Part shown: piece by piece, positions 733 through 48,528 of the stretch | Position numbering within the stretch: the first letter of the stretch is position 1 | How the letters are laid out: every line of letters begins with the position of its first letter | Source of the DNA: Rikenellaceae bacterium | Lineage (GTDB): Bacteria; Bacteroidota; Bacteroidia; Bacteroidales; Rikenellaceae | Direction of reading: 5' to 3' | DNA length: 64,000 nucleotides | NCBI GenBank assembly: GCA_015060065.1 | Contig: SUZF01000008.1 | Location: 19,316-83,315 of the forward strand | Program-made: the position numbers and the translations under genes | The notes under the pieces: model-generated | What the model saw: the letters and a program-made list of their open reading frames with translations, nothing else | What the model was told of the DNA's origin: nothing | The model's database searches: none

Positions 733-1168
733 GGCTTTAAGGGCAACCGGGGGCGCAGTCGCCCTGCTCCTGCTTATGGGGAGTATGGGGAGCGCGACCG
801 AGGTCGCTTATGGGGAATTGACAATTGATAATTGATAATTGATAATTGACAATTAAGCGGCTGATGGCTAATTTAGAGAGTATAGAGAGTTTAAGGAGTT
901 AGGGGTTGATTCCCTAAATTTCCCTATACTCCCTAATCTCCCCAATTTCCCCATACTCTCTTATAGCCATTGGCCATTGACCCCTCCGGTCTTCGACCAC
1001 CTCCCCTAAAACAGGGGAGGAGTTTTTTTGTTCCCACGCCTTCCACGCCTTCCACGCCTCCCCAGTTTCCCCATAAGCAGTCGCAGACTGCGCTCCCCAT
1101 TCTCCCCAGAGAAATAATTTAGGGAGATTAGAGATTTTAGGTAATTTAGGGATTATGGGGACACTGGG
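733..1168. repeat. Modular intergenic foldback repeat, copy A
   Basis: Starts immediately after nfo stop; near reverse complement of 24032-24430 and partly of 18504-18866; AATTGAY x5 at 816-854, 9-mer tracts, hairpins GCGACC-GA-GGTCGC, CTCCCCT-AAAAC-AGGGGAG, GCAGTC-GCA-GACTGC. Confidence 0.9.
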
Positions 1169-1203
1169 CCAGATGAGTTAGAGGCGAATCTTTTTTGTGT
1201 TTT

Positions 1204-1445
1204 CGAGGGGTTGTGGGTATCCGCAAGGATGCTGCAAAATGGAAATAGTGACCTTGGGAATTTATTCACAAAAGGTCACTATTTTCGTTTTGTGTATTGT
1301 CGCAGACAACAAAACCCTCGTAATAAACCTTATACTGTCAAACTCCCCGAAACGCAGTTTCGGCTGAAAAGTTTTTGCACGCCCTGCTTTTTTCAAAAAG
1401 CGGGCAAATAAAAAAGGTTTTGCGTCGCTTTTTTCTAAAAGCGAC
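1204..1445. other. Cluster of inverted repeats (second REP-like module or structured RNA)
   Basis: 13-bp perfect IR 1243-1255/1272-1284; CCGAAAC-GCA-GTTTCGG 1347-1363; T-run/A-run hairpins at 1381-1405 and 1424-1445. Confidence 0.6.
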
Positions 1446-4997: not shown

Positions 4998-6710
4998 CTA
5001 TTTTATCATCGTGTAGGAGAGGTTGATTTTAATCGAGGCGTTTTGCAATGCAGCATCCTCCATACCCCAAACCCTTGAATGCTTGAAGGTGTATAAATCA
5101 TACGCCTCCGGAGCGAGGTAGATTGTACGCGGGATGTACTTACCGCTCTTTGTCTTATTCTCCTCCTTTTCGTACTCCGCCTCATAGTCGAAACCTGCCT
5201 CATTATCCTTGTTGAGGAAATCGACATAGTTTTTCAGGCATTGTACATAACCCGATATATCCATTACATAACTTGCACGACTGCGGTTGAGCAGACCACC
5301 GAAGGCAAGTGCCGTATCATACGTCTTCTCGTATGTAAAATTATAGTCCGGAATGGGCGTCAGCGAGTCAAAATCGGTATATAAGCCCATACGCAGTATC
5401 GATTTATCAAGCAGAGGTGTAATCACGTCAGGCTGAATCTCCAACCAATCGTAGTTCGAGCCTTCGAGATAGACACTCATCATCGCCTGATTGATTGCCG
5501 TTTTGCTGAAATCATCCTCCGCACTAATGTTACGCAACTCCGCAAGGAAGTCATCCGAGAAGTATATCTCCAACATCGGACCACCCATACCACTGATGTA
5601 GCCCACCGTACTCTCGCTGCGTGATAGGCGATTTTCCTCTGCGCTCTTATCCTTATCGTCAGTAAGTGTGAGGTTTTCCAGCGGCGTACCCGTAAAGTCA
5701 TGCTTCACGCTGTTGATAGAGTAATTTCCAACCTTGGCGTACTTGTCATAGAAGTAGTAGTACATGTAGGTCGTATCCTTTATGAGTTTCGGCTCCTCCG
5801 GATTGCGATTACGACCCAACAGGTAGATTCCTGTTGCAGAGAAATCGACCTTATACATCGCGCCTTCCTTGTCGGCTGCGAGGTCATTCACCGGTCTGAC
5901 ATAAAGACCCTTAAACGCCTCAACCCACTTTTTGTCGTCGGTATAGACCTCCGTATCATCAGCGTATCCGTTCCAAGACTGCGTGTTGGCCGGGATAAGC
6001 ATCAACCTGCGGATAAAATCCCACGTCGGACTATCGGTTGCCAACGATACCGGCTGCATCGTCACAGCCGTAGAGGTTGTATATACACCCTCCTCCTGAT
6101 TCGGGAAGCGGAAGGTAAATAGAGGTTTACTCTGGTCGTACAACTGCTCCATATCAAAGCCGATATAGGCAACGGTATCTTTGCCGTCATCCATGGCCTC
6201 AACCAGCGACTTCGTAACCTCAAAGATCTCGTAGGTCTGGACATAGGTCGTATCGCCCGCAAAATCCTTGACCGACAAGAGCAACTGCAAAGAGTCAAAG
6301 ATGGGAAGATACCCAAAACCCTCTTCGCCTATATCGGACATAAAGAGGAAGTTGGTGGCATAGCCCGCATTGCGCTTTCCGAAAATATTGTCGAGGTCAC
6401 GCTCCACGCCCATATATCCCACTTGGAGGTTCGATGAAACGAGCGAATCCGAGCGGAAGAGACTGGTGCGGAAGGCTCGGCAATCCTTCTCGGTTACAAC
6501 AAACTTGTTCTGCTCCTTGTCAAAGATGTCCTTATAGACCTTGCCGGCAAAAAAACTCTTGAAACGAATCTGCATCTTCTGATTCTCCGGGATGATTTCA
6601 TATCCGAGCGTATTGTCGGAGGTCGTACACCCCGCAAACAGAGATATTGCCGTAATCGAAATCACGGCAACAGCATTCAGAATCTTGCGCAGATTAGCGT
6701 ATCTCTTCAT
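4998..6710 (-). CDS. DUF4270-family lipoprotein
   Basis: Lipobox LFAGC; start at ATG 6710 overlapping the upstream stop; usual Bacteroidota position after the glycogen-synthase-like gene. Confidence 0.7.
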   Translation of the reverse strand: MKRYANLRKILNAVAVISITAISLFAGCTTSDNTLGYEIIPENQKMQIRFKSFFAGKVYKDIFDKEQNKFVVTEKDCRAFRTSLFRSDSLVSSNLQVGYMGVERDLDNIFGKRNAGYATNFLFMSDIGEEGFGYLPIFDSLQLLLSVKDFAGDTTYVQTYEIFEVTKSLVEAMDDGKDTVAYIGFDMEQLYDQSKPLFTFRFPNQEEGVYTTSTAVTMQPVSLATDSPTWDFIRRLMLIPANTQSWNGYADDTEVYTDDKKWVEAFKGLYVRPVNDLAADKEGAMYKVDFSATGIYLLGRNRNPEEPKLIKDTTYMYYYFYDKYAKVGNYSINSVKHDFTGTPLENLTLTDDKDKSAEENRLSRSESTVGYISGMGGPMLEIYFSDDFLAELRNISAEDDFSKTAINQAMMSVYLEGSNYDWLEIQPDVITPLLDKSILRMGLYTDFDSLTPIPDYNFTYEKTYDTALAFGGLLNRSRASYVMDISGYVQCLKNYVDFLNKDNEAGFDYEAEYEKEENKTKSGKYIPRTIYLAPEAYDLYTFKHSRVWGMEDAALQNASIKINLSYTMIK

Positions 6711-15602: not shown

Positions 15603-18503
15603 ATGAAAAAACTCTTTCTGGTCGATGCCTACGCATTGATTTTCAAATACTACTACGCCTTTATGGGGCGCCCGATGCGTAATCGCTCCGGGATGAATAC
15701 CTCGATACTCTTCGGCTTCACGAAGTTTCTGCGCGACATTCAGAAGCGCGAGAAGCCCGACCTGCTCGGTGTGGCATTCGACCCGAAGGATGGCTCGTTC
15801 CGCAAGGATATATTCCCCGAATACAAGGCCAATCGACCGGCAACACCCGAAGATATCATCGAGTCGGTACCATACATCAAACGACTGCTCGATGCGATGT
15901 GTATTCCCATTCTCGAAGTCGAGAACTATGAGGCTGATGACGTAATCGGCACACTCGCATTCAAAGGTGCCGCTGCGGGTTACGAGGTCTATATGGTTAC
16001 GCCCGACAAAGATTATGGTCAGTTAGTGGGCGAACACCGCCACCTCTACAAGCAGAAGGGCGATGGTATCGAGGTTGTAAAGAGTGCCGATATCTGCGAA
16101 AAATATGGCATCGAAGACCCGATTTTGGTGCGCGATATTCTAGCTTTGTGGGGCGACTCGTCAGACAACATTCCCGGAGTGCCGGGCATAGGCGAGAAGG
16201 GGGCATGCAAGTTGGTTCGCACGTGGGGCACTGCCGAGAATATCCTCGCCAATGCCGGCAACATCGGGGGAAAGATCGGTGCCAACATTGCCGAGTGGGG
16301 CGACAAACTCCTGCTGGCAAAGCGTCTGACCACAATCTGCCTCGATGTGCCTATCGAGTTCCGCCCGGAGGAGCTGACGGTCTGCTGTCCGCATATCGAT
16401 ACGTTGAAGGCTCTCTTTGCCGAGTTGGATTTTAGGATGTTTATGAACGACTTGGCAAACCTTGCGCCTGCCGAGGAGATTACCGACATCCCCCAGCAGG
16501 CTCCACAGACTCAACTTGCCGAGGTTGCACGTGCAAAGTCACACGCATTGAAGCAGGCTCGGTTGGAGGGTCAGGGCGACCTCTTTGCTCAATTTGAAGC
16601 ACCGACAACACCCGCACCAACACTGTTTGCATCTACGACAGATGTCGCTGCCGAGTCGGAGATGGCGACAACAGAGGTCGAGGATGAACTTATGCCCGCC
16701 ACAGCCCAGACGACCCCGCACGACTACCGCACAATCTACTCTGCCGAGGAGTTGCGTAAAGTTGTTGCAGAGATATCTCGCTACAAAGAGTTCTGCTTCG
16801 ACACCGAGACTATGGGACTCGACATCTTCAACGACCGCATAGTGGGTCTTTCGTTGGCGGTAGAGCCACACAAGGCGTGGTACGTCCCATTCAGCGGTCT
16901 AAACAACGAGGAGTACGCCTCGATTCTGCGCCCGCTCTTTGAGTGTGAGCAGATTGCAAAAATCGGGCAGAACATAAAGTTCGATATAATGGTTTTGAGC
17001 CGTCTGGGCATCAAAGTCGCAGGTCGCAAGTTCGACACGATGATTCTCCACTACCTGCTCGACCCCGAATCGCGCCATGGTATGAATCAACTCGCCCTGC
17101 GCTATCTGAATTACAAGCCCATCGAAATCGAGACCCTTATCGGTCGCGGAGCAAAGCAGCTGACGATGGATTTGGTTGCTATCGAGCGCGTGGCAGAGTA
17201 TGCTGCCGAGGATGCCGACATCACGTTGCAACTCAAACACGCCCTGCTGCCCCTCGTCGAGGAGCAGGGACTGCTCAACCTCTACTTCGACATCGAGGAG
17301 CCGATGATTGACGTGCTGGCAGAGATGGAACTTACGGGTGTCTGCATCGACTCCGCCCTGCTGAACAACTACTCCGTAGAACTCAACGCCCGACTTTTGG
17401 AACTTGAACGTCAGGTGCGCGAGGAGGCCGGCGAGCCGTCATTGAACATCAACTCCACACGTCAGTTGGGCGAGGTGCTTTTCGCGAAGATGCGCATAAC
17501 CGACAAGCCCAAGATGACCAAAACCAAGCAGTTCTGCACCGATGAGGAGTATCTGCAAGGCTTCGCCCACGACCACCATATCGTGAAACTCATTCTTGAA
17601 TATCGCGGTGTGAAAAAACTCCTTTCGACGTACGTCGAGGCTTTGCCACTATTGGTAAATCGCACCACCGGCCGCATCCATACATCTTTTAATCAGGCTG
17701 TTACCGCTACCGGTCGTCTCTCTTCCGCCAACCCCAACCTGCAAAATATCCCCGTACGCGAGGAACAGGGACGTCGTATTCGCGAGGCGTTCATACCCTC
17801 GGACGAGGATCATCTGCTCCTCTCGGCAGATTACAGTCAGGTAGAGTTGCGCGTAATGGCACATTTGAGCGGTGACGAGTCGCTCATAGCAGCCTTCCGC
17901 AATGGCGAAGATATCCACGCAGCCACTGCCGCCCGTCTCTTCGGCAAGAGCCTCGATGAGGTCTCCGGCGAGGAGCGTCGCAGAGCCAAGACCGCCAACT
18001 TCGGCATAATATACGGCATCTCGGTATTCGGATTAAGTCAGAGATTGGAGTTGCCCCGTGCAGAGGCGAAGGCGATAATCGAGGGCTACTTCACGTCATA
18101 CCCGAAGGTCAAGGAGTATATGGATGGCGCAGCCGAATCGGCACGCGAGAAGGGCTACGTATCGACAATATTCGGTCGTCGTCGCTACTTGAACGACATC
18201 GCCTCACGCAATGCCGTGGCTCGCGGTCTGGCAGAGCGCAACGCCATAAATGCACCTATTCAGGGCAGTGCTGCCGATATTATGAAGATGGCAATGGTCG
18301 CCATAGCCCGCGAATTTAAGGCGCAAGGATTGCAGTCCAAAATGATTTTGCAGGTACACGATGAGGTTATTATCGACATGCTGCGCTCCGAGCAAGAACA
18401 GGTAATACAAATCGTTACCCACGCCATGGAGAGTGCCGCCTCATTGAGCGTTCCCCTGACTACCGACTACGGCATCGGCTCCAACTGGCTCGAAGCACAC
18501 TAA
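15603..18503 (+). CDS. polA: DNA polymerase I
   Basis: 5'-3' exo (EADDVIGT, GDSSDNIPGVPGIGEK), 3'-5' exo (FDTET, GQNIKFD, YAAEDAD), polymerase (TGRLSS, DYSQVELR, AKTANFGIIYG, QVHDE). Confidence 0.98.
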   Translation: MKKLFLVDAYALIFKYYYAFMGRPMRNRSGMNTSILFGFTKFLRDIQKREKPDLLGVAFDPKDGSFRKDIFPEYKANRPATPEDIIESVPYIKRLLDAMCIPILEVENYEADDVIGTLAFKGAAAGYEVYMVTPDKDYGQLVGEHRHLYKQKGDGIEVVKSADICEKYGIEDPILVRDILALWGDSSDNIPGVPGIGEKGACKLVRTWGTAENILANAGNIGGKIGANIAEWGDKLLLAKRLTTICLDVPIEFRPEELTVCCPHIDTLKALFAELDFRMFMNDLANLAPAEEITDIPQQAPQTQLAEVARAKSHALKQARLEGQGDLFAQFEAPTTPAPTLFASTTDVAAESEMATTEVEDELMPATAQTTPHDYRTIYSAEELRKVVAEISRYKEFCFDTETMGLDIFNDRIVGLSLAVEPHKAWYVPFSGLNNEEYASILRPLFECEQIAKIGQNIKFDIMVLSRLGIKVAGRKFDTMILHYLLDPESRHGMNQLALRYLNYKPIEIETLIGRGAKQLTMDLVAIERVAEYAAEDADITLQLKHALLPLVEEQGLLNLYFDIEEPMIDVLAEMELTGVCIDSALLNNYSVELNARLLELERQVREEAGEPSLNINSTRQLGEVLFAKMRITDKPKMTKTKQFCTDEEYLQGFAHDHHIVKLILEYRGVKKLLSTYVEALPLLVNRTTGRIHTSFNQAVTATGRLSSANPNLQNIPVREEQGRRIREAFIPSDEDHLLLSADYSQVELRVMAHLSGDESLIAAFRNGEDIHAATAARLFGKSLDEVSGEERRRAKTANFGIIYGISVFGLSQRLELPRAEAKAIIEGYFTSYPKVKEYMDGAAESAREKGYVSTIFGRRRYLNDIASRNAVARGLAERNAINAPIQGSAADIMKMAMVAIAREFKAQGLQSKMILQVHDEVIIDMLRSEQEQVIQIVTHAMESAASLSVPLTTDYGIGSNWLEAH

Positions 18504-18866
18504 ACCTCTTTAATCTCCCTAAATTATTTCTCTGGGGATTATGGGTAGCGCAGTCTGCGACTGCTTATGGGGAAATTGGGGAGAATGGGAAAACTGGGGA
18601 AATTGGGAAGATTAGGGAGTTTAAGGAATTTAGGGAATCAACGCCTAACTCCTTAAACTCTCTATACTCTCTAAATTAGCCATCAGCCACTTAATTATCA
18701 ATTATCAATTATCAATTGTCAATTCCCCATAAGCGACCTCGGTCGCGCTCCCCATACTCCCCATAAGCAGGAGCATGGCGACTGCGCCCCCGGTATCCTC
18801 AAAGCCCCCCCCCAAAAAAAACTCCTCCCCTGTTTTAGGGGCGGTGGTCGAAGACCGGAGGGGTCG
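18504..18866. repeat. Modular intergenic foldback repeat, copy B
   Basis: Begins within 10 bp of the polA stop; 18590-18806 is the near-identical reverse complement of about 733-950; AATTRTC x4 at 18693-18724; C9-A8 run; GGTC-GAA-GACC hairpin. Confidence 0.9.
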
Positions 18867-18930
18867 GAGGATAGGCCAGTGGCTTTTTGTAGGGTCGATT
18901 ATCAAACGTCTAAACCATCTTTAACAGCAC

Positions 18931-18958
18931 AAAGGGCTGCCTCGGAAAAGGCAGCCCT
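18931..18958. terminator. Terminator hairpin between convergent polA and lipoprotein genes
   Basis: AGGGCTGCCT-CGGAAA-AGGCAGCCCT perfect 10-bp stem. Confidence 0.6.
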
Positions 18959-18983
18959 CGATTTATGCAAAAATTGAGTTGTA

Positions 18984-20381
18984 TTACTTCGCACGAACCG
19001 CTTTCGGGCTTGCCTTCGGGGTGCGGAGGTGTGCCACCGAGCAGAAACGACCCAACGTGCGATGCGCTCTGCTGCGGTTTAGAGCGCTCTTCACGGCAAC
19101 TGATGCTGTGGAGATCTCTCCCTCTGCGATGGGCATTGCGCCCGTGTAGTTCGCCTTAATCTTATTGTCAAGGGCATCTGCAAAGTTGGCTGTAATATTA
19201 TAGTTACTACCACTTGCGCTCACAGAGATTGTTCCCGACATTACCAGAGCCCAAGTTGTTGCGTACTCTCCTTCGCCTGCCATATAATAGGTCGGCAAAA
19301 TCCCTCCATCTTCGGAAAAATCTCCGGCAAACGCATCTCCGACAACATTGGTAACATCACCATTGTCATTTGCCGCATAGTCGGTAATTGCGTATTGACC
19401 CACGGGGGTTGTCGCATTTGCAGCAGACAAGCACTCGACAGCAAGTTCTTCGGTGGAGTTGTAGAGGACTACTATCCAATTCTGGGTGTTATTTTCATAG
19501 AAGTCGCCATAATAGTAGGCCTCTGCATCGGTCGGTGTAACCGTAATATCGCTCGTAAGAGTTGTAGAGTCATCCTCGCCACCGGTCGAACCCGAACCGG
19601 AGTCGTCGCCCGAACCCGACCCGCTATACGTAAATACATAGGATGTCAGAGCCGTATTGGGTGCGCCATTATAACCGAATGCATAAACCGTGTAAGACTC
19701 ACCAGCGGTAAGATATCCGCTATAATCGTAGGTATCGACACCCGAAACAAGATAATACGAAAGTGTTCCTTTCCTCTGGGAAATAAGGTCATTCATGATG
19801 TACGCATCGCTCTCGCCTGCATAAGAGTCGCTCGGCACAACATCCCAGAAATATTGGTCGTTGTTCGAGGGAGTAATCGTAATTGTACCTCCATCTACGC
19901 TGATAGCAAAGGTGTTGTTCGAAGCGACCGCCTTCTCGGTATGGAAACCTTTGAGGGCAAGTTTTGTAACCGGATTGAGCCTTGAATCCACTCCAAAAGC
20001 GAAAATGTAATAATTGGTGTCGGGGGTCAGTTCATTTTGGTATGTGTAAGAGTCTGTTCCGACCGAGATGCTCGACACGGGCGTTGTACCCTGCGACTCA
20101 CACCACGCTTTCAGGTGGTTGATTCGACCCTTCATAAACTCCATATCACTATTGGAGGCTGCATACACCGACTTTTCAACCTTATCAAAATAGTACAAAG
20201 CCGTAACATCGCTCGGAGTGACCTCAACCGTAGCACTAACAGCAGAGATATCGCTGACCTTGATGCTGAATGTCATGTCCGAAAGACCGGAGCCACCATT
20301 GTTGTCACCACTCTTGTCGCAACTCACTGCAAAGAGAGCGACCATGGCAAATATTGCCACGAAAAGATTTCTAAATTTCAT
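18984..20381 (-). CDS. Surface lipoprotein with two FN3/Ig-like repeats, Gly/Ser linker and C-terminal beta domain
   Basis: MKFRNLFVAIFAMVALFAVS-C lipobox; repeats TFSIKVS..VTPS..YYF..LTPDTNYYIFAFG and TFAISV..ITPS..QYFW..LTAGESYTVYAFG; true start 20381, not 20702. Confidence 0.75.
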   Translation of the reverse strand: MKFRNLFVAIFAMVALFAVSCDKSGDNNGGSGLSDMTFSIKVSDISAVSATVEVTPSDVTALYYFDKVEKSVYAASNSDMEFMKGRINHLKAWCESQGTTPVSSISVGTDSYTYQNELTPDTNYYIFAFGVDSRLNPVTKLALKGFHTEKAVASNNTFAISVDGGTITITPSNNDQYFWDVVPSDSYAGESDAYIMNDLISQRKGTLSYYLVSGVDTYDYSGYLTAGESYTVYAFGYNGAPNTALTSYVFTYSGSGSGDDSGSGSTGGEDDSTTLTSDITVTPTDAEAYYYGDFYENNTQNWIVVLYNSTEELAVECLSAANATTPVGQYAITDYAANDNGDVTNVVGDAFAGDFSEDGGILPTYYMAGEGEYATTWALVMSGTISVSASGSNYNITANFADALDNKIKANYTGAMPIAEGEISTASVAVKSALNRSRAHRTLGRFCSVAHLRTPKASPKAVRAK

Positions 20382-20409
20382 ATTTGTTGATTCTTTGATA
20401 AACACATCG

Positions 20410-20533
20410 CAAATATATGTATAATATCGAAAAAATATGCACTCGCAGTGGTAAAATTGGTCATTTGAGGTTATTTTCATCACTTTGAGGGGTGTTATCC
20501 GGTTGTGTAATTCGGAAAATAGTTCTATCTTTG
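20410..20533. promoter_or_regulatory. Divergent promoters for the lipoprotein (minus) and tRNA-Ser (plus)
   Basis: TATATTTG minus at 20410-20417; TATCTTTG plus at 20526-20533. Confidence 0.65.
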
Positions 20534-20546
20534 CCACACGAAAAGA

Positions 20547-20634
20547 GGAGAGGTGCAGGAGTGGTTGAACTGGCCCGCCTGGAAAGCGAGTAAACGTCAA
20601 AAACGTTTCAGGGGTTCGAATCCCCTTCTCTCCG
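20547..20634 (+). tRNA. tRNA-Ser(GGA), CCA not encoded
   Basis: Acceptor GGAGAGG/TCTCTCC, D-loop GAGTGG, anticodon loop CT-GGA-AA, long variable arm AAACGT-CAAAA-ACGTTT, T-loop GTTCGAATC. Confidence 0.96.
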
Positions 20635-20652
20635 CAAAGAACAAACGAAGCA

Positions 20653-20686
20653 AAAAGGTGTCGAGAATTCGACACCTTTTGTTTTT
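20653..20686 (+). terminator. tRNA terminator
   Basis: AAAAGGTGTCGA-GAAT-TCGACACCTTTT followed by GTTTTT. Confidence 0.8.
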
Positions 20687-20731
20687 GGATAGTATGGCGC
20701 AAATTTATTTGCAGACATAGTAGCCAAAAAC

Positions 20732-21080
20732 AAAAATAGTTGATTTATCAACTTTTTGCGTAGTGCAGTTCTTTGCAAGGGCCTCCGTGGCAAGCGGAGG
20801 GGAAAAACGAGCGACGCGATGCGGCAGCAGAGCATAGCGAAGTTAATCCCTCTCCAAAAAAAACTGTAAGTTTTGGGGACGCAAAAAATAGTTGATTTAT
20901 CAACTTTTTGCGCAGTGCAGTTCTTTGCAAGGGCCCCACCGGCGAGGTGAGGGGAAAGACGCAGTAAAGCGAAGCGGCTGCGTCAATCCCGCCAAGTCCG
21001 ATTTTATATCCGAGATTTCGTGAGGGGAAAAACGAGCGGTGCGATGCGGCAGCAGAGCATAGCGAAGTTAATCCCCCTCT
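20732..21080 (+). repeat. tRNA-linked direct repeats
   Basis: 52-bp unit at 20732-20783 and 20884-20935 (1 mismatch); 59-bp unit at 20797-20855 and 21022-21080; related unit 20949-20993; each GAGGGG...AATCCC. Confidence 0.85.
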
Positions 21081-21098
21081 ATCAATTAGAATCTGAAT

Positions 21099-21275
21099 GG
21101 GGGGGGGTACTAGGGAATATGGGGGCGCAATCGGAGATTGCTTATGGGGAAGATGGGTTAAATAAGTTAAATAAGTTAGATGGGGAGTTTTTACTTACCC
21201 TAAACTCCCTAAACTCCCTAATTTCCCCATTATCAATTCTCAATTATCAATTGTCAATTATCAATTCCCCATACC
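21099..21275. repeat. Modular repeat, diverged short copy D
   Basis: G9 run, GGGGGC-GCAATC-GGA-GATTGC-TTATGGGGA module, CCCTAAACT 9-mers, AATTRTC heptamers 21229-21266. Confidence 0.8.
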
Positions 21276-21407
21276 CCCCACGCCCGAAAAAGATATTACA
21301 AAACCAACGCCCAAACAGACAAATTTATCATCTTTGAAAAAATCTTTATATCTTTGTCGATGCAGAGGGGCTGACACGGATGTCCAAAGGCTCTTCTGTT
21401 CGAAATT

Positions 21408-22969: not shown

Positions 22970-24031
22970 ATGGGAAAGCACTATCTCTTCTATGTGGCAC
23001 ACTCTTATGCCTATGCCATTCTCTTCCCGATAGAGGAGGAGATTGCACGTCGTGGCGGTGTGTCGGCATGGTTTATCGAGCAGGGATGCCCCACCGAAGC
23101 CCTCGGAGAGCGTCGTCGCATTGAGAATTTTGACGAGGTGGATAACTTCGCCCCCGTGGCGGTCTTTGCTCCCGGAAACTATATCCCCGACTTCTTCCCC
23201 GGAGTGAAGGTCGAGGTATTCCACGGCTACCCGATAAACAAGCGTGCCGACAAGCACGACGACCACTTCACAATACGTGACTGGTTTGATCTCTACTGCA
23301 CGCAGGGACCAAGCAGCACCGCTCCCTTCAACGCTATCGCCCAACGTCTCGGCACCTTCCGCGTACGCGAAACCGGCTGGGCAAAGAGCGACAGTTATAT
23401 ACGCGCGGCAGAGCGCATCCTCAAAGAGCCGACCGGTCGCCCCACAATACTCTACTCATCGACATTTACCCGCTCGCTAACCTCTACAACAATACTCGCC
23501 GACGAGATAGAGCGAATGGTTGCCTCCGGTCGCTGGAACTGGATATTTATGTTCCACCCGAAACTCGACGATGCACAGGTGCTTGCCCACTACCGCTCCC
23601 TTGCCGAACGGTACGATAACGCCCGATACTACGGCAACACTTTCGATATGGAGGCAATGGTGCAGGCAGATGCAATGCTCTGCGACTCGTCATCAATAAT
23701 TATGGAGTTTATGCTCCTCGACAAGCCCGTGGTAACATTCCGCAACTCAATGCCCGGAGCGCACCTGCTCGACGTTTCCGAGATTGAAGCCGTAGAGCCG
23801 GCCCTCGAAAAGGCACTCACACGCCCCGAAACCCTGATGTCGGCACTGCGAGAGTGGCGCGATAACCACGAAGCACACCGCGACGGACTCTGCGCAGCCC
23901 GCATACTCGATGCCGTGGATGAACTAATCGCAGACGGTGGCACGAAATGCCTGCGACCGAAACCCCTCAACCTCGTGCGCAAACTTAAACTGCGCAAAAA
24001 ATTAGGCTACCCCCTATTTAGGAAGTTGTAA
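22970..24031 (+). CDS. CDP-glycerol glycerophosphotransferase family protein
   Basis: VEVFHG, TGWAKSD, LYSSTF, FHPK, CDSSSIIMEFMLLDKPVVTF. Confidence 0.75.
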   Translation: MGKHYLFYVAHSYAYAILFPIEEEIARRGGVSAWFIEQGCPTEALGERRRIENFDEVDNFAPVAVFAPGNYIPDFFPGVKVEVFHGYPINKRADKHDDHFTIRDWFDLYCTQGPSSTAPFNAIAQRLGTFRVRETGWAKSDSYIRAAERILKEPTGRPTILYSSTFTRSLTSTTILADEIERMVASGRWNWIFMFHPKLDDAQVLAHYRSLAERYDNARYYGNTFDMEAMVQADAMLCDSSSIIMEFMLLDKPVVTFRNSMPGAHLLDVSEIEAVEPALEKALTRPETLMSALREWRDNHEAHRDGLCAARILDAVDELIADGGTKCLRPKPLNLVRKLKLRKKLGYPLFRKL

Positions 24032-24486
24032 TATCTCCCTAAATTATTTCTCTGGGGATAATGGGGAGCGCAGTTTGCGACTGCTTATGGGGACACTGGG
24101 GAAATTGGGGAGGCGTGGGAACAAAAAAACTCCTCCCCTGTTTTAGGGGAGGTGGTCGAAGACCGAAGGGGTCAATGGACAATGGCTATAAGAGAGAATG
24201 GGAAAACTGGGGAAATTGGGAAGATTAGGGAGTTTAAGGAATTTAGGGAATCAACCCCTAACTCCTTAAACTCTCTATACTCTATAAATTAGACAATTAG
24301 CCACTTAATTATCAATTATCAATTATCAATTGTCAATTGTCAATTCCCCATAAGTGACCTCGGTCGCGCTCCCCATACTCCCCATAAGCAGGAGCAGGGC
24401 GACTGCGCCCCCAGTTTCCTCAAAGCCCCCCCCAAAAAAAACTCCTCCCCTGTTTTAGGGGAGGTGGTCGAAGACCGGAGGGGTCA
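24032..24486. repeat. Modular intergenic foldback repeat, copy C (longest)
   Basis: Begins at the 24031 stop; near full reverse complement of copy A; two copies of CTCCTCCCCTGTTTTAGGGGAGGTGGTCGAAGACC; AATTRTC x5 at 24307-24345. Confidence 0.9.
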
Positions 24487-24516
24487 AAAGTTTAGCCATT
24501 AGCCATCGGCTAACGT

Positions 24517-25338
24517 CTAATGTCTAAAAAAGAGTCTGCGCAGAGCGAAGATGGCGTTGTTTATCACGCGATGCAGGTCGTAACTCCATCGGCTCTTGGG
24601 TTTTAGGCGGTCATCAACCATATAGACAGCCTTATAGCATACGCGCATACCTTTATGCAGTGCATAGACCATCAACAATCGCTCGCTGATGTATCCGAAG
24701 ATGCGCCCCTGCACAGGGTCTTTCGGCACCTCAATACGTCGTTCCGCCTCGAAGAGGGTATCGAACAACCACTCCGAATACTCCTCGAAATCCTTGCGTC
24801 GCATAATGAACATATTGAATCGAGCCAGCAGGTTGTTCTCGAAGAATATCTTATCGAAGGCGTCAAGGTATTCGGGCGAGCGTTCTGCGACAATCTCGCG
24901 CACGGTAAGGATATCCTCGCCCCGATGACTGCGGGCATACTCGGTGTAGATATTGCGAGTCTGCACCCTCGGCTTCGAGAGAACGATATCGTACTCCTTA
25001 AAAACCTCGTCCATATCAGGCAGAGGATGCTCCTCGGAAAAGAAACTCTCCGTGCGGACAATATGCACATTTCCCGGCTCGTTACCAAAGTCGAAGTAGC
25101 GACGGTAGTGGCTCAAACCGACATACTCCGCCTCTCCAAGGTTTTTCCAAGCCCAATAGTGCGCCGTAAGTTCGCAAAAACTGCGATTCTTGTCGCTGAT
25201 ATTATCGCCCGTGTCGTCACCCGTGAAGCCCAAATCGACCGAAGAGATTGCCTTGCCGACCTGAATCGGCATATACGGCTCATGTGCCAGACAGCGGTCC
25301 TGCTTATGGGCGCAGACCAAGATTACAGTTTTGCTCAT
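24517..25338 (-). CDS. DUF4422-domain protein (putative galactofuranosyl transferase)
   Basis: YMPIQVG, DDTGDNISDKNRSFCELTAHYWAWKN, GLSHYRRYF, NMFIM, RIFGYISERL; coupled to glf. Confidence 0.85.
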   Translation of the reverse strand: MSKTVILVCAHKQDRCLAHEPYMPIQVGKAISSVDLGFTGDDTGDNISDKNRSFCELTAHYWAWKNLGEAEYVGLSHYRRYFDFGNEPGNVHIVRTESFFSEEHPLPDMDEVFKEYDIVLSKPRVQTRNIYTEYARSHRGEDILTVREIVAERSPEYLDAFDKIFFENNLLARFNMFIMRRKDFEEYSEWLFDTLFEAERRIEVPKDPVQGRIFGYISERLLMVYALHKGMRVCYKAVYMVDDRLKPKSRWSYDLHRVINNAIFALRRLFFRH

Positions 25339-26966: not shown

Positions 26967-28139
26967 ATGGCTATACTAAACTACTACCTGATTATCGTCA
27001 TTTTTCTCCTCACCCCGGCAGGTGTAATATGGTTGTGTCGCAGATTCCCGCTTCTCGACAAGATTGGACCCATTATGATTCTCTACGCTGTGGGGATGAT
27101 TTTTGGCAATATGCCCTTCGCTCCGGAGGAGATTGCCCCGATACAGGAGATTATGCCCAATGTGCTGATTCCGTTAGCGATACCGATGATGTTATTCGGC
27201 TGTTCGTTTTCGAGCAAGGATGCTCCATTGCAGTTGAGGGTCGTCTCTTCGGGATTTATCTCTGTGGTTGTGGCAGTTGTTGTGGGCTACCTGCTCTTTG
27301 GCTGCAAAGTCAAGGAGGGAGCCGAAATCGGAGGCATAATTACGGGTATGTACACCGGAGGAACACTCAACGCAGCGGCTCTGCAAGCGATATTCCGCAT
27401 AAACAGCGAGCAATTCATTCTGATAAACTCCTACGACATCATTATCTCGTTCCTCTACTTCGTCTTTCTGTTCGGTATCGGAATACGCCTCTTCCGTTGG
27501 CTCTATGGCGAGAAACGCTTTGCGGAGAAGATGACACAGAGCGAAGCACCCGCAACCGAAGTGCAACCGACTGTCATCAAAGAAAATCCATACAAAAAAC
27601 TATGCACCAAGGCAGGAGCCATCCAACTTGGCAAGATTCTACTCACAACACTTGCCATCGTTGCCATCTCGGCAGGTGTAGCGTTGTTGCTGCCCGAACA
27701 GTGGTTTATGGTGGTTTTCATCTTGTTGCTGACCACCCTCGGTGTGTTGAGTTCGTTTATCCGCCCCGTGCGCGAGTTGGATGTGGCGTATGATGTGGGA
27801 ATGTACCTTATCTACGTGTTCAGCATGGTTATCGCCTCGATGGCAGACTTCTCGAACCTCGACCTGCGCGGTGGGGTCTATCAACTCGCATTTATGACAA
27901 TAGCGGTATTCCTATCGTTGGCAATTCACGCCATACTCTGCCGCCTGATGAAGGTCGATGCCGACTCGATGGTCATATCGTCAGTGGCATTTATCAATTC
28001 CCCACCCTTCGTTCCGATGGTTGTAGCAGCGATGAATAACAAGAGAAGCCTTGTAACGGGTCTGGGCGCAGGAATCGTGGGCTACGCCCTTGGCAACCAC
28101 CTCGGCGTCTTGGTTGCAGAGTTGTTGTCGAGACTCTAA
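26967..28139 (+). CDS. DUF819 family membrane protein
   Basis: About 10 TM segments; GMYTGGTLN, SVAFINSPPFVP, GYALGNHLG; own -7 box at 26923-26930. Confidence 0.85.
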   Translation: MAILNYYLIIVIFLLTPAGVIWLCRRFPLLDKIGPIMILYAVGMIFGNMPFAPEEIAPIQEIMPNVLIPLAIPMMLFGCSFSSKDAPLQLRVVSSGFISVVVAVVVGYLLFGCKVKEGAEIGGIITGMYTGGTLNAAALQAIFRINSEQFILINSYDIIISFLYFVFLFGIGIRLFRWLYGEKRFAEKMTQSEAPATEVQPTVIKENPYKKLCTKAGAIQLGKILLTTLAIVAISAGVALLLPEQWFMVVFILLLTTLGVLSSFIRPVRELDVAYDVGMYLIYVFSMVIASMADFSNLDLRGGVYQLAFMTIAVFLSLAIHAILCRLMKVDADSMVISSVAFINSPPFVPMVVAAMNNKRSLVTGLGAGIVGYALGNHLGVLVAELLSRL

Positions 28140-29704: not shown

Positions 29705-29965
29705 GCCGGGTGTTTTCGGAGGGGGTGGCTTATGGGAAAGCGTTTATTCTGCGCTGAACATCTGCAAACCGTTTGAAAACCAAGCGCAACGAAGGGTGAA
29801 AAGGGAATCCGGTGCAAATCCGGAACAATGCCTGTTGCTGTGAGTCCGCCTCTGTTGCCGACAGTTTGGTCGAGTGTAAAATTTCAGAGGGTTGCTTATC
29901 GTAATCTATTGCCACTGGGAGACCGGGAAGGCGCGATAAGTGGACAAGTCAGAAGACCTGCCTGT
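29705..29965 (+). promoter_or_regulatory. Cobalamin (AdoCbl) riboswitch
   Basis: AAAAGGGAATCCGGTGCAAATCCGG, GCTGTGAG, GCCACTGGGAGACCGGGAAGG, AAGTCAGAAGACCTGCC; promoter TACCTTTG at 29673-29680; upstream of btu genes; 5' boundary approximate. Confidence 0.93.
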
Positions 29966-30154
29966 GTGATTAAGATTTTGGACCTGCAGGATTATGGGTT
30001 GGAATCAAAATACTTTACAACCATAACAGTCAGGTTTTTAGTGTGGGGCCGCCATGGCGCGAACACATTTTAGGGGCGGGTGGCATAATCCGCACCGCAA
30101 AGAGACAACCGGTGGCAGGTTTTATTGGTTATAGAGTTTTTGAGTCGAGCATAG

Positions 30155-46256: not shown

Positions 46257-46283
46257 ATCTCCTACAAAAGTAAGAAATTTCGC

Positions 46284-46308
46284 AATTCACAATTCACAAT
46301 TCACAATT
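46284..46308. repeat. Solo heptamer tract (AATTCAC)x3.5
   Basis: Direct reading, in recG/ispG divergent spacer. Confidence 0.8.
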
Positions 46309-47878: not shown

Positions 47879-47922
47879 CAAGACCTTACAACGCTCACGC
47901 CAAATATCAATTATCAATTCAA

Positions 47923-48528
47923 ATGGTTGTTCTACCATCGACATACCTCGGCTCGATTGAGTATTTTGCCAACCTCGCACAGCGGGGCGGAGAGTGTGTA
48001 GTGGATATTCACGAACACTACATCAAACGCTCCGAGCGCAATCGTGCGCAGATAATGACCGCAAACGGGATTATGCCTCTGTCGGTACATGTTGTCAATG
48101 CCAACCGCCCCCGAACACCGATGCACAAAGTGCGAATCGACTACTCGAAGCGTTGGCAACACCAACATTGGGTTGCTATCGTGTCGGCATACCGCTCATC
48201 GCCATACTTTGAACACTATGCACCCCTGATAGAGCCATTCTACTCGGCTCACTACGACTCGTTGGTCGAGTTTAACACAGCCCTAACCTCGCGACTGATG
48301 CAGTTGTTGGGTATCGAGGGGGGATTGCACCTATCGGAGGAGTATGTCGAGGCGGCTGCGGGAGATATCGACCTGCGCATAAAAAAGAGGGAGAGTCACT
48401 TCGACTCCCCCCACTATTTCCAACTCTTTTCGGACAGATTCCCCTTTGAGCCAAACCTCTCGGTCTTGGATTTGCTCTTCTCGGAGGGACCTGCCGCTAT
48501 CGACTTTTTAAGACGTTGCCGATTGTAA
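47923..48528 (+). CDS. WbqC family protein
   Basis: LPSTYLGSIEYF, RNRAQI, AYRSSPYFEHY, YFQLFSDRFPFEPNLSVLDLLF. Confidence 0.85.
   Translation: MVVLPSTYLGSIEYFANLAQRGGECVVDIHEHYIKRSERNRAQIMTANGIMPLSVHVVNANRPRTPMHKVRIDYSKRWQHQHWVAIVSAYRSSPYFEHYAPLIEPFYSAHYDSLVEFNTALTSRLMQLLGIEGGLHLSEEYVEAAAGDIDLRIKKRESHFDSPHYFQLFSDRFPFEPNLSVLDLLFSEGPAAIDFLRRCRL

What the first reader, a model, noticed from the sequence alone, without database searches (positions are those of the whole stretch)
733..1168. Family of modular REP/BIME-like foldback elements sitting directly behind stop codons (copies at 733, 18504, 24032; diverged copy at 21099)
Seen: three 360-450 bp copies share the same modules, and copy A is the reverse complement of copy C. 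Modules are 9-mer tracts (GGGGAAATT, GGGAGATTA, CCACGCCTT), heptamer tracts (AATTGAY), and hairpins GCAGTC/GACTGC, GCGACC/GGTCGC, CTCCCCT/AGGGGAG and GGTC/GACC. Modules are deleted or duplicated between copies: the CTCCCCT/GGTC module is present twice in C and once in A and B. A, B and C start at or within 10 bp of a stop codon and lie between convergent genes. On either strand the 5' half is G-rich and the 3' half C-rich, so each copy can fold back (GCTTATGGGG/CCCCATAAGC, GGGGAGCGC/GCGCTCCCC). Inference: a non-autonomous, recombining repeat family targeted to gene 3' ends. Four copies in 25 kb suggest many genome-wide. No mobilising gene is in the window.
Basis: partly seen in the sequence, partly recalled or inferred. 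Interest (0 to 1): 0.72.

Follow-up and report, generated by a model that had tools for sequence, protein, structure and literature searches.

The report
Mosaic foldback repeats behind Alistipes genes
An uncultured gut Alistipes carries a real, lineage-specific family of non-coding, hairpin-rich mosaic repeats that fill the gaps behind convergent genes; they resemble the REP/BIME elements of E. coli but are built differently, and how they spread is still unknown.

Summary
Copies A (733-1168, inverted), B (18504-18883) and C (24032-24520) share 89-100% identical modules. D (21099-21290) is a short diverged copy.

Each copy is non-coding and has nested inverted repeats:
- Three REP-like hairpin units, GGGGRGC-stem/loop-TTATGGGGA, with different stems.
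- G-rich nonamer arrays that hold all six G-quadruplex motifs of the 64-kb window.
- An (AATTGAY)n heptamer array that puts stops in all three frames in one orientation only.
- A portable intrinsic-terminator module.

Single strands fold far better than shuffles (z -6.3 to -7.6).

The family is multi-copy beyond the window. Word depth in metagenomes is 8-20x for core modules and 30-50x for the terminator module. Two further copies were found.

It is lineage-restricted. A sister Alistipes species has a copy at one shared site. Relatives with 80-91% PolA identity have plain 12-140 bp gaps instead.

Copies sit flush with stop codons, and copy C supplies one. Synteny breaks and contig joins coincide with them.

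No transposase lies in the window, and no Rfam family matches. The GTAG/CGTC REP head is absent. Terminal inverted repeats are absent and target duplications are inconclusive.

Verdict: a new BIME/REPIN-like variant with an unresolved mobilisation mechanism, of moderate interest.

The parts
733..1168 (-). Copy A, inverted relative to B and C. It is flush with the nfo stop (730-732) and truncated at that end. Order on the + strand: U3, U2, heptamers, nonamer palindrome, M, CCACGCCTT array, U1, left-end nonamers.
749..783 (+). A: REP-like unit U3, GGGGGCGCAGTCGCCCTGCTCCTGCTTATGGGGAG. It pairs with U1 in the foldback.
787..821 (+). A: REP-like unit U2 with stem GCGACC/GGTCGC. It ends in CTTATGGGGAATTGA.
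816..854 (+). A: heptamer array (AATTGAY)x5.6. It gives 2-3 stop codons in every frame on this strand and none on the other. It also matches TTGACA-N17-GATAAT.
865..966 (.). A: nonamer palindrome, G-rich arm then C-rich arm. It holds a G4 motif on the minus strand at 922-952.
977..1029 (+). A: module M. A small GACC/GGTC hairpin is followed by the terminator-like hairpin CCTCCCCTAAAACAGGGGAGG and a T run. It is oriented to stop transcripts coming from nfo.
1068..1098 (-). A: REP-like unit U1 with stem GCAGTC/GACTGC.
18504..18883 (+). Copy B, between the polA stop (18501-18503) and a retained plain bidirectional terminator hairpin (18932-18965). It lacks the internal M.
18543..18573 (+). B: unit U1.
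18569..18692 (.). B: G-nonamer array and palindrome, with a G4 motif at 18569-18599.
18693..18724 (-). B: heptamer array. Its stop-giving orientation faces the minus-strand gene 18984..20480.
18719..18791 (-). B: units U2 (18719-18753) and U3 (18757-18791).
18815..18865 (-). B: module M, a terminator for the minus-strand gene. Contig L043 leaves the window's gene order within or just before this module.
24032..24520 (+). Copy C. It fills the whole gap between the glycosyltransferase-like gene (stop 24029-24031) and DUF4422 (stop 24517-24519, inside the element's AACGTCTAA end).
24063..24093 (+). C: unit U1.
24123..24173 (-). C: internal module M, first of two.
24200..24306 (.). C: nonamer palindrome. 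G4 motifs lie at 24089-24119 and 24200-24230.
24307..24345 (-). C: heptamer array.
24340..24412 (-). C: units U2 (24340-24374) and U3 (24378-24412).
24435..24485 (-). C: terminal module M, 30 nt downstream of the DUF4422 stop.
21099..21290 (+). Copy D, a short diverged version with the same architecture. It has a U1-like unit with stem GCAATC/GATTGC (21121-21150), nonamers GTTAAATAA and CCCTAAACT, heptamers (21229-21267) and a CCCCATA end. It has no U2, U3 or M. It lies upstream of a gene start, not behind a stop.

Best explanation
This is a lineage-specific family of non-coding, non-autonomous mosaic intergenic repeats. It works like the REP/BIME or REPIN elements of proteobacteria, but it is a different construction.

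A copy is a long imperfect palindrome of about 190-490 bp made of four kinds of part:
- REP-like hairpin units in opposite orientations. They share the flanks GGGGRGC and TTATGGGGA but have interchangeable 6-bp stems.
- G-rich nonamer arrays that look like slipped copies of the TATGGGGAR flank. They fit the G-quadruplex motif.
- An (AATTGAY)n array that reads as stop codons in all three frames towards the gene that runs into it.
- A portable intrinsic-terminator module (M).

Shown: copies entered short gaps between convergent genes in one Alistipes lineage. They persist there, with one site shared by two species. They lie flush with, or replace, the last codons and stop of the flanking genes. 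They are reshuffled module by module.

Inferred: spread happens through single-strand foldback intermediates handled by an enzyme encoded elsewhere, most plausibly a Bacteroidetes-type Y1 HUH (RAYT or IS200-like) protein. Homologous recombination between copies then homogenises them and rearranges the chromosome. Once in place a copy acts as a 3'-end cassette, giving a terminator, RNA 3' hairpins and back-up stops. That role would make it tolerable there and nowhere else.
For: Family and architecture:
- Searches show the copies and their shared modules.
- Foldback z scores are -6.3 to -7.6.
- Three different stems (GCAGTC/GACTGC, GCGACC/GGTCGC, GCAATC/GATTGC) sit between identical flanks. This fits selection on the hairpin rather than on its sequence.
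- All 6 G4 motifs of the window lie inside the copies, against 1.18 +/- 0.96 in shuffles.
- The heptamer array gives 2-3 stops per frame in one orientation and 0 in the other.
- That orientation faces the upstream gene in 7 of 8 arrays examined: A, B, C, F in L060, two in L014, and L018.
- M is the only terminator-like site in each copy and always points away from one flanking gene.

Copy number:
- Word depth is about 10 for single-copy sequence. It is 80-200 for core modules and 240-480 for M.

Gain and persistence:
- The same gene pair is 12 bp apart in L057.
- polA is followed by a 43-140 bp gap with one plain hairpin in L065, L049, L051 and L053, and no copy lies anywhere in those 17-23 kb loci.
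- Copy E next to the M56-peptidase gene is shared by the window's species (L043) and Alistipes sp. RGIG1766 (L011), at 92% identity over 608 nt spanning the junction.

Contact with coding ends:
- nfo gains one codon.
- The DUF4422 tail is replaced and its stop lies in the element.
- Two unrelated proteins in L014 and L018 both end LMGN*, encoded by CTTATGGGGAATTGA followed by heptamers.

Recombination:
- Identity is mosaic by module.
- Contigs L043 and L060, whose shared sequence matches the window at 99.9-100% outside the elements, switch neighbours inside copies B and A.
- Every comparison with relatives breaks synteny at an element site.

Literature:
- RAYT subclasses 2.4 and 2.6 occur in Bacteroidetes with 'atypical secondary structures' repeated in the genome (PMC6006769).
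- BIMEs are proposed to be RAYT-mobilised (PMC2817692).
Against: - No mobilising enzyme was seen. None lies in the 64-kb window or in about 28 kb of extra flanking sequence, and the rest of the genome could not be read.
- The REP hallmark GTAG/CGTC head is absent.
- No excision product or empty allele was found in other strains. B is occupied in all four more distant strains tested.
- Array lengths are the same in the independent assemblies compared (and 100% identity), so no ongoing activity is visible.
- Modules have very different copy numbers. The heptamer array also occurs alone in many contexts, which fits piecemeal assembly as well as unit transposition.
- Terminator, G4 and back-up-stop functions are inferred from sequence only. 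RNA runs were available only as assembled contigs.
- L043 and L060 could be chimeric assemblies rather than true recombinants.
Confidence: 0.5

Rival explanations
1. There is no dedicated mobilisation. The gaps grew in place by polymerase slippage of 7- and 9-nt units around pre-existing terminator hairpins. Copies resemble each other because ectopic recombination or gene conversion between gaps copies segments from one to another, and chromosomal rearrangements carry them along.
For: - Modules have independent copy numbers. The heptamer array stands alone in many contexts.
- Nonamers look like slipped TATGGGGAR.
- Identity is mosaic by module.
- Every element site is a synteny breakpoint.
- Orthologous gaps in L055 are filled by quite different repeat families, so gap turnover is general in this clade.
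- Heptamer-rich intergenic assemblages that are absent from close relatives were reported in other Bacteroidetes, with no mechanism (PMC4679880).
Against: - Slippage alone does not put the same 380-490 bp ordered arrangement at non-homologous sites at 89-100% identity.
- Gene conversion needs a homologous recipient. That is missing at a 12-bp empty site such as L057's.
- Arrays are stable between strains and between two species.
- Hairpin stems vary in a compensatory way between fixed flanks, which suggests recognition of a structure.
Confidence: 0.27
2. The element is a classical MITE, an internally deleted DDE-type insertion sequence with terminal inverted repeats. The parent IS moves it and makes target-site duplications.
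For: - It is about 400 bp, non-coding, intergenic, and present or absent between relatives.
- B is flanked in the window strain by CTAAACCTCTTTAA (18500-18513) and CTAAACCATCTTTAA (18910-18924).
- A MITE with an internal tandem-repeat array, BrickBuilt, is known in Porphyromonas gingivalis (PMC4596501).
Against: - The ends (ATCTCCCTAAATT... and ...GGAGGGGTC / AACGTCTAA) are not inverted repeats of each other. All inverted repeats are internal.
- The right-hand direct repeat of B differs at 8 positions in strains X9 and X15.
- C has at most TAAT duplicated, and A is truncated.
- Left ends are ragged, with extra nonamers in A and L011.
Confidence: 0.08
3. The copies are primarily functional host sequence. 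They would be a 3'-UTR or small-RNA cassette kept by selection, for example a ~170-180 nt RNA running from the heptamer array to module M in A and C, or an insulator between convergent genes. On this view they are not selfish DNA.
For: - M is a good intrinsic terminator and is correctly oriented.
- In A and C the heptamer array (TTGACA-N17-GATAAT, 11 of 12) lies about 150-180 nt upstream of an M on the same strand.
- Element sequences occur in a metatranscriptome (X8).
- G-rich repeats near stop codons are transcribed in Xanthomonas (PMC4692102).
Against: - Close relatives do without them at the same gene pairs.
- B lacks the internal M.
- The promoter match is to the sigma-70 consensus, not the Bacteroidetes -33 TTTG / -7 TAnnTTTG type (my own knowledge).
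- There is no Rfam match at E <= 1.
- Relative depth in the RNA run is lower than in DNA runs, and that run may contain DNA.
Confidence: 0.1
4. The copies are an assembly artefact: collapsed or chimeric repeats in a metagenome-assembled genome.
For: Contigs often stop inside the copies (L045, L059, L061), and two contigs join different neighbours there (L043, L060).
Against: - Independent assemblies from different samples and pipelines (JGI L042, L058; ENA L044) reproduce A, B, C and D with both flanks at 99.9-100% identity.
- Unitigs from eight runs run from both unique flanks into the copies.
Confidence: 0.02

Closest known systems
REP / BIME / REPIN elements with RAYT transposases (E. coli, Pseudomonas, Stenotrophomonas; PMC2817692, PMC3116915, PMC3733652)
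   Same: - Short extragenic hairpin units with conserved flanks and variable stems.
- Units sit in alternating orientation inside a larger mosaic with other motifs.
- Foldback potential, location at gene 3' ends, species specificity, and no coding capacity.
- The mobilising gene, if any, lies elsewhere.
   Different: - No GTAG or CGTC head.
- Units are separated by 200-300 nt of nonamer and heptamer arrays rather than short linkers.
- Tens of copies rather than hundreds.
- Carries its own intrinsic terminator.
- The host is a Bacteroidota, and RAYT association is untested.
Heptamer direct-repeat assemblages in intergenic regions of Beggiatoaceae, Cyanobacteria and some Bacteroidetes (TAACTGA repeats; PMC4679880)
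   Same: - Tandem A/T-rich heptamers containing TGA, giving stops in all three frames in one orientation.
- They sometimes overlap stop codons.
- Near-identical heptamer-rich gaps occur at several sites.
- Close relatives have short gaps without them.
- Contigs end in them, and a role in rearrangement was suspected.
   Different: - The unit here is (C/T)AATTGA, not TAACTGA.
- Arrays lie downstream of stops rather than just upstream of starts.
- They are embedded in a larger palindromic element with hairpin units and a terminator.
G-quadruplex-forming GGGNATC / GGGGAYT heptamer repeats of Xanthomonas and Nostoc (PMC4692102)
   Same: G-rich short tandem repeats that fit the four-tract G4 motif. 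They are enriched in non-coding DNA within about 50 bp of stop codons.
   Different: - Nonamer period, with units that drift in sequence.
- Arrays are paired with their complement to form a palindrome.
- G4 formation was not tested here.
BrickBuilt MITE with internal minisatellite, Porphyromonas gingivalis (PMC4596501)
   Same: A Bacteroidales element that is species-restricted, strictly intergenic, present in about 19 copies, contains an internal tandem-repeat array, and has leader and tail subunits.
   Different: - BrickBuilt has 23-nt bricks and small terminal inverted repeats.
- The present family has 7- and 9-nt units, internal rather than terminal inverted repeats, and lies flush with stop codons. 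BrickBuilt lies 49-591 nt from the nearest genes.
Pneumococcal BOX and neisserial NIME/Correia mosaic repeats (my own knowledge; reviewed in PMC3184786)
   Same: Modular build with variable numbers of internal modules. They are intergenic, form stable hairpins, and can affect transcription and act as recombination substrates.
   Different: No sequence relationship. There are no Correia-type terminal inverted repeats with a TA duplication, and the module set differs.

Membership tests
REP / BIME / REPIN (RAYT-associated) | Short (20-40 nt) imperfect extragenic palindromes, repeated in the genome | tested here: met
   Units U1, U2 and U3 are 31-35 nt with 6-bp stems. Word depth is 8-20x single copy. 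That means tens of copies, not the >100 typical of REPs.
REP / BIME / REPIN (RAYT-associated) | Conserved GTAG or CGTC tetranucleotide at the foot of the hairpin | tested here: not met
   The feet read GGAGC or GGGGC. Only copy B has GTAG, through one substitution.
REP / BIME / REPIN (RAYT-associated) | Units in inverted or alternating orientation that form a larger hairpin | tested here: met
   U1 pairs with U3 in the minimum-free-energy and centroid folds. z = -6.3 to -7.6.
REP / BIME / REPIN (RAYT-associated) | A cognate Y1 HUH (RAYT) gene in the same genome, flanked by the repeats | not testable with these tools
   None lies in the window or about 28 kb of flanks.
MITE (DDE-transposon derived) | Terminal inverted repeats | tested here: not met
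   The two ends are not reverse complements of each other. The inverted repeats are internal.
MITE (DDE-transposon derived) | Target-site duplication of fixed length | tested here: inconclusive
   B has a 14/15-nt flanking direct repeat in the window strain only. C has at most 4 nt, and A is truncated.
MITE (DDE-transposon derived) | Occupied versus empty orthologous sites | tested here: met
   L057 has a 12-bp gap at the C site. L065 and L049 have 43-100 bp at the polA site. No empty allele was seen within the species.
TAACTGA-type heptamer direct repeats (PMC4679880) | Tandem heptamers, intergenic, with stops in all three frames in the forward orientation | tested here: met
TAACTGA-type heptamer direct repeats (PMC4679880) | Unit sequence TAACTGA | tested here: not met
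   The unit is (C/T)AATTGA. L014 has AAACTGA and CAATTGA arrays side by side.
G4-forming G-rich tandem repeats (PMC4692102) | Four or more G3+ tracts with loops of 1-7 nt | tested here: met
   There are 6 motifs, all inside the four copies, against 1.18 expected. This is a sequence motif only.
G4-forming G-rich tandem repeats (PMC4692102) | Quadruplex formation in vitro | not testable with these tools
   This needs CD spectroscopy or similar.
Any curated RNA family (Rfam 15) | Covariance-model match | tested here: not met
   There is no match inside any copy, either at gathering score or at E <= 1.
Intrinsic (Rho-independent) terminator (module M only) | G+C-rich stem-loop followed by a T run | tested here: met
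   M has an 8-bp stem (6 G-C pairs), a 5-nt loop and AGTTTTTTT. It is found in A, in C twice, and in weaker form in B. Termination itself was not tested.

The most novel reading that the evidence does not exclude
The family would be the visible part of an undescribed Bacteroidota REPIN-like system. Foldback elements with hairpins defined by TTATGGGGA would be moved as single strands by a Bacteroidetes-type Y1 HUH enzyme. They would carry a built-in 'landing kit': a TTATGGGG-capped (AATTGAY)n array that stops translation in all three frames, plus their own terminator. That kit would let them insert against, or even into, the 3' ends of essential genes without harm. It would explain why unrelated proteins in different genomes end in the same LMGN* tail. 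The G4-prone nonamer arrays would then be part of the strand-specific recognition or replication-fork targeting.
Probability: 0.12. Interest if true: 0.7.

Novelty: new variant of a known kind. Interest (0 to 1): 0.45.

Why it matters
Small non-coding repeats are well studied in proteobacteria and a few Gram-positive bacteria, but hardly at all in gut Bacteroidota.

This family shows that an abundant, uncultured ruminant-gut Alistipes lineage has REP/BIME-like mosaics. They mark chromosome rearrangement points and remodel the last codons of housekeeping genes. They also break metagenome assemblies and probably cause chimeric contigs at these sites.

The family ties together three phenomena that have been described separately and never explained: heptamer arrays with three-frame stops, G4-prone tandem repeats near stop codons, and REP-like hairpins. 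Here all three sit in one element.

If the mobilising enzyme were found, it would give a tractable system for single-strand transposition in Bacteroidota and a strain-typing marker. If no enzyme exists, the case documents very fast turnover of intergenic DNA by slippage and recombination.

Tried and rejected
- **Genome-collection scan.** The scan for AATTRTCAATTCCCCATA gave 41 loci. Thirty-eight were chance 18-mers. Only L011, L014 and L018 were informative. The window's own genome is not among the species representatives.
- **Metagenome-collection scan.** The scan for CTCGGTCGCGCTCCCCATAC gave 3 chance hits.
- **Viral contigs.** Two scans for module patterns found nothing.
- **Rfam.** Searches at gathering score and at E <= 1 found nothing in the copies. 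A known ncRNA, group II intron remnant or riboswitch is therefore rejected.
- **Small selfish gene inside a copy.** I looked for a four-helix-bundle, DUF559, GIY-YIG or HUH gene. No ORF in or beside the copies has a family, and all larger ORFs of the window are housekeeping.
- **Target-site duplication.** The analysis was inconclusive.
- **Empty allele of copy B in more distant strains.** None was found.
- **RNA 3'-end mapping.** It was not possible, because the RNA runs exist only as assembled contigs.
- **Integron attC sites.** Rejected by inference, because the flanking genes are core genes in conserved operons.
- **Sigma-70 promoter match of the heptamer array.** Noted but not relied on, because Bacteroidota use a different consensus.
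Full report
**1. The observation**

The window (51% G+C) holds three long copies and one short copy of a repeat.
- BLASTN of 721-1180 against the window finds 18500-18865 (E = 1e-83) and 24033-24487 (E = 4e-143), both on the opposite strand. It finds weaker matches at 21195-21273 and nothing beyond 25 kb.
- The repeat finder gives inverted arms of 102-132 nt at 89-99% identity and direct B-C blocks at 87-97%.
- The MAFFT alignment shows the same order of modules in A (reverse complement), B and C. A 100-nt block containing the 53-nt module M is present in A and C and absent from B. A second M lies at the right end of B and C.
- TRF confirms the nonamer and heptamer tracts.
- GC skew changes sign in the middle of every copy.
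- Each copy folds as single-stranded DNA much better than its shuffles: -77.1, -81.8 and -93.9 kcal/mol, z = -6.4, -6.3 and -7.6.

There are small corrections for copy D, the right end of C, and the rest of the gap that holds A.

**2. Anatomy**

In the orientation of B and C a copy reads as follows.
- A left end, ATCTCCCTAAATTATTTCTCTGGGGA.
- Unit U1, GGGGAGC-GCAGTC-TGC-GACTGC-TTATGGGGA.
- Sometimes a CCACGCCTT array plus an internal M.
- A G-rich nonamer array (GGGGAAATT, GGGGAGAAT and so on) running into its own complement, which makes a long imperfect palindrome.
- A heptamer array.
- Units U2 and U3 in the opposite orientation. U2 has the stem GCGACC/GGTCGC.
- A C run and a terminal M.

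Features of these parts:
- U1 and U2 share the flanks GGGGAGC and TTATGGGGA, and U3 has the variant GGGGGC. The stems differ between units. Copy D has a third stem, GCAATC/GATTGC, between the flanks GGGGGC and TTATGGGGA. The hairpin is conserved rather than its sequence.
- The nonamers look like slipped, drifting copies of the TATGGGGAR flank.
- All six canonical G4 motifs of the 64-kb window lie in the four copies. Mononucleotide shuffles give 1.18 +/- 0.96.
- The heptamer array (AATTGAY)n carries 2-3 stop codons in each frame in one orientation and none in the other.
- M is a small GACC/GGTC hairpin followed by CCTCCCCTAAAACAGGGGAGG and a T run. It is the only terminator-like site in each copy.
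- No ORF inside the copies matches a family.
- No Rfam model matches, even at E <= 1.

**3. Context**

The organism is an uncultured Alistipes from ruminant or faecal metagenomes.
- A lies between nfo and a C1 peptidase gene.
- B lies between polA and a 498-aa gene of unknown family.
- C lies between a glycosyltransferase-like gene and DUF4422. All three are convergent pairs.
- D lies between tRNA-Ser(GGA) and the start of an FAD-protein gene.
- Of eight convergent junctions in the window, three carry a copy. These are the only ones longer than 180 bp.

Contact with coding ends:
- nfo ends GFAGER*, against GFAGE* in orthologues.
- polA and the glycosyltransferase keep their native ends, and the element starts 0-9 nt later.
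- DUF4422 ends FALRRLFFRH*, against FALRRLVGCHSAKAPKGLK* in L057. Its stop codon lies in the AACGTCTAA motif that B and C share at their right ends.

In B the plain bidirectional terminator typical of relatives is still present outside the element, at 18932-18965. All larger ORFs of the window are housekeeping or metabolic. There is no transposase, integrase or HUH protein (gene tables).

**4. Copy number and reality**

- Independent assemblies from other samples match the window at 99.9-100% across the copies and both flanks: L042, L044, L058 and L059.
- In faecal metagenome runs, single-copy flanks have word depth of about 10. Core modules have 80-200, M has 240-480, and the heptamer array has thousands.
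- More than 200 different loose ends are attached to the copies.
- These depths include related strains and count only sequence at least 90-95% alike, so they are rough. They indicate about ten to twenty whole copies, more M modules, and very many stand-alone heptamer arrays.
- The heptamer array is flanked by many unrelated sequences.
- About 28 kb of further sequence from the same strain, to the left, to the right and beyond L043, adds only copy E next to an M56-peptidase gene and copy F next to a TonB-receptor-like gene.

**5. Relatives**

Loci around PolA homologues:
- At 91% (L065), 89% (L049), 87% (L053) and 80% (L051) identity, there is no copy anywhere in 17-23 kb.
- Those loci have a 43-140 bp gap with one ordinary hairpin behind polA.
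- The downstream gene differs, with pth-L25 in the two closest relatives. The element site is therefore a synteny breakpoint.

Loci around the glycosyltransferase homologue:
- L057 has the same convergent pair 12 bp apart, which is an empty site.
- L055 has the same pair separated by 672 bp of quite different repeat families.
- L054 joins nfo-GT to the peptidase gene.
- L056 has yet another neighbour.

The only other genome with the family is Alistipes sp. RGIG1766 (L011).
- Its copy aligns with L043 at 92% over 608 nt, from the element into the M56-peptidase gene.
- At least one insertion therefore predates the split of two species.
- Array lengths are the same in that comparison and among strains, so the arrays are not hypervariable.

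**6. Recombination**

- Identity between the copies varies by module: 87-100% for the left end and U1, 88-100% for the nonamer palindrome, 88-97% for U2/U3, and 75-100% for M, where the lowest values involve L011. Within-genome values are as high as the between-species value at the shared site.
- L043 is identical to the window from 13 kb upstream of B to about 18776. It then follows copy E and its neighbours.
- L060 follows the peptidase flank and A, then switches to copy F.
- These are either true recombinants or assembly chimeras. Either way, the copies are long enough and alike enough to act as recombination substrates.

**7. The heptamer cap**

- In L014 (a Tidjanibacter MAG) a beta-lactamase-family protein ends LMGN*. 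In L018 a P-loop ATPase ends the same way. Both tails are encoded by CTTATGGGGAATTGA followed by more CAATTGA units.
- This is the same sequence as the 3' flank of U2 plus the first heptamer.
- In L060 a gene's stop is flush with (AATTGAT)n followed by a terminator.
- In 7 of 8 arrays examined, the stop-giving orientation faces the gene that reads into it.
- This suggests, but does not prove, that the array makes insertions at or in gene ends harmless.

**8. Explanation**

The best-supported reading is a non-autonomous mosaic repeat that works like a BIME or REPIN.
- *Shown:* the structure, the multiplicity, the restriction to one lineage, the empty sites, the persistence at one site, the contact with stop codons, and the coincidence with rearrangement points.
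- *Inferred:* movement through single-strand foldbacks by a Y1 HUH enzyme encoded elsewhere, homogenisation by recombination, and a role as terminator and 3'-end cassette.
- RAYT subclasses are known in Bacteroidetes, with atypical repeated hairpins (PMC6006769). BIMEs are thought to be RAYT-mobilised (PMC2817692).

The main rival is growth in place by slippage, plus spread of segments by ectopic recombination with no dedicated enzyme. It explains the unequal module copy numbers and the general turnover of gaps in this clade. It does not easily explain an ordered 400-bp arrangement arriving at a 12-bp gap.

Other rivals:
- A classical MITE is unlikely, because there are no terminal inverted repeats and duplications are inconsistent.
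- A purely functional RNA gene is unlikely, because relatives lack it, there is no Rfam match and B lacks the internal terminator.
- An artefact is excluded.

**9. Comparison with known elements**

Membership in REP/BIME fails on the GTAG/CGTC head and is untestable for the RAYT.
- The heptamer arrays match the class described by MacGregor (PMC4679880) in behaviour but not in sequence or position.
- The nonamer arrays match the G4-repeat class of Rehm et al. (PMC4692102) in motif and in location near stops, but not in period.
- BrickBuilt of P. gingivalis (PMC4596501) is the nearest described Bacteroidales element, but it is built differently.
- Four of the five paper searches were aimed at finding such elements in Alistipes or other Bacteroidetes. 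None found a description of this family.

I rate it a new variant of a known kind, of moderate interest.

Noticed in passing
window 1185-1300 (minus strand); also L011:7235-7350 and L055:11245-11478 (two copies): A second, unrelated repeat unit lies beside copy A. It is a 12-bp-stem hairpin followed by a conserved tail, TTTCCATTTTGCACTATCC..GGATAGCCACAA. Eight of 23 predicted pairs change on both sides and stay paired across four sequences. It could be a small RNA or another REP-like unit.
   Followed up: partly
window 1348-1415: This terminator-like hairpin stretch (GCACGCCCTGCTTTTTTCAAAAAGCGGGC...) has word depth 690-1940, against about 10 for its flanks. It is a separate repeat with very high copy number in the same metagenomes.
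   Followed up: no
window 20732-21079: Two tandem ~150-nt units lie directly downstream of tRNA-Ser(GGA). The 78-nt blocks are 88% identical and the 58-nt blocks 95%. Word depth is 77-150, so they are repeated elsewhere too. L042 differs from the window only at 21087, 21092 and 21096.
   Followed up: partly
window 46279-46308 and 47901-47919: Short heptamer tracts occur outside the family. (TTCACAA)x4.3 lies between the divergent recG-like and ispG (GcpE) genes, and (CAATTAT)x2.7 lies between ispG and a WbqC-like gene.
   Followed up: no
window 29745-29979 (+): A cobalamin riboswitch (Rfam RF00174, 61 bits) lies upstream of a DUF4465 / DUF5074 / TonB-receptor gene cluster.
   Followed up: no
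window 18984-20702 (-) and 20547-20635 (+): The mechanical ORF overlaps tRNA-Ser(GGA). The gene as called on public contigs is 18984..20480 (498 aa) and matches no Pfam family.
   Followed up: partly
L043:12898-13290 and L060:5011-5840: Contigs from other samples, identical to the window up to that point, leave the window's gene order inside copy B (then M56 peptidase/BlaR-like, BlaI-like genes...) and inside copy A (then a TonB-receptor-like gene). They are true recombinants or assembly chimeras. Contigs L045, L059 and L061 simply end inside copies.
   Followed up: partly
L055:11081-11752: A relative has the same glycosyltransferase/DUF4422 pair separated by 672 bp of other repeat units. The stop codon and last codons of its DUF4422 gene lie inside one of those units. 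C-terminal tails of DUF4422 differ in all three orthologues compared.
   Followed up: partly
L014:1650-1950 and 5415-5530: Gaps between convergent genes in a Tidjanibacter MAG are also packed with drifting 7-9 nt tandem arrays (AAACTGA, GGACAAT, AAGGTCTTT, CCTTTTAGC, TTCAGTT, TCAATTG, CGACCGA, GTCCTTAAG). They also hold a CCCCTCCCCTAAGTTAGGGGAGGG hairpin that resembles module M.
   Followed up: partly
window 818-846, 18722-18694, 24343-24315: The heptamer array makes an 11-of-12 match to the sigma-70 consensus TTGACA-N17-GATAAT. In A and C it points towards an M terminator about 150-180 nt away.
   Followed up: partly
window 28136-28139 and 48497-48528: Two convergent gene pairs (DUF819/TsaD and WbqC-like/GH2) overlap at their 3' ends and leave no intergenic DNA. 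This contrasts with the 480-790 bp gaps that hold the repeats.
   Followed up: no
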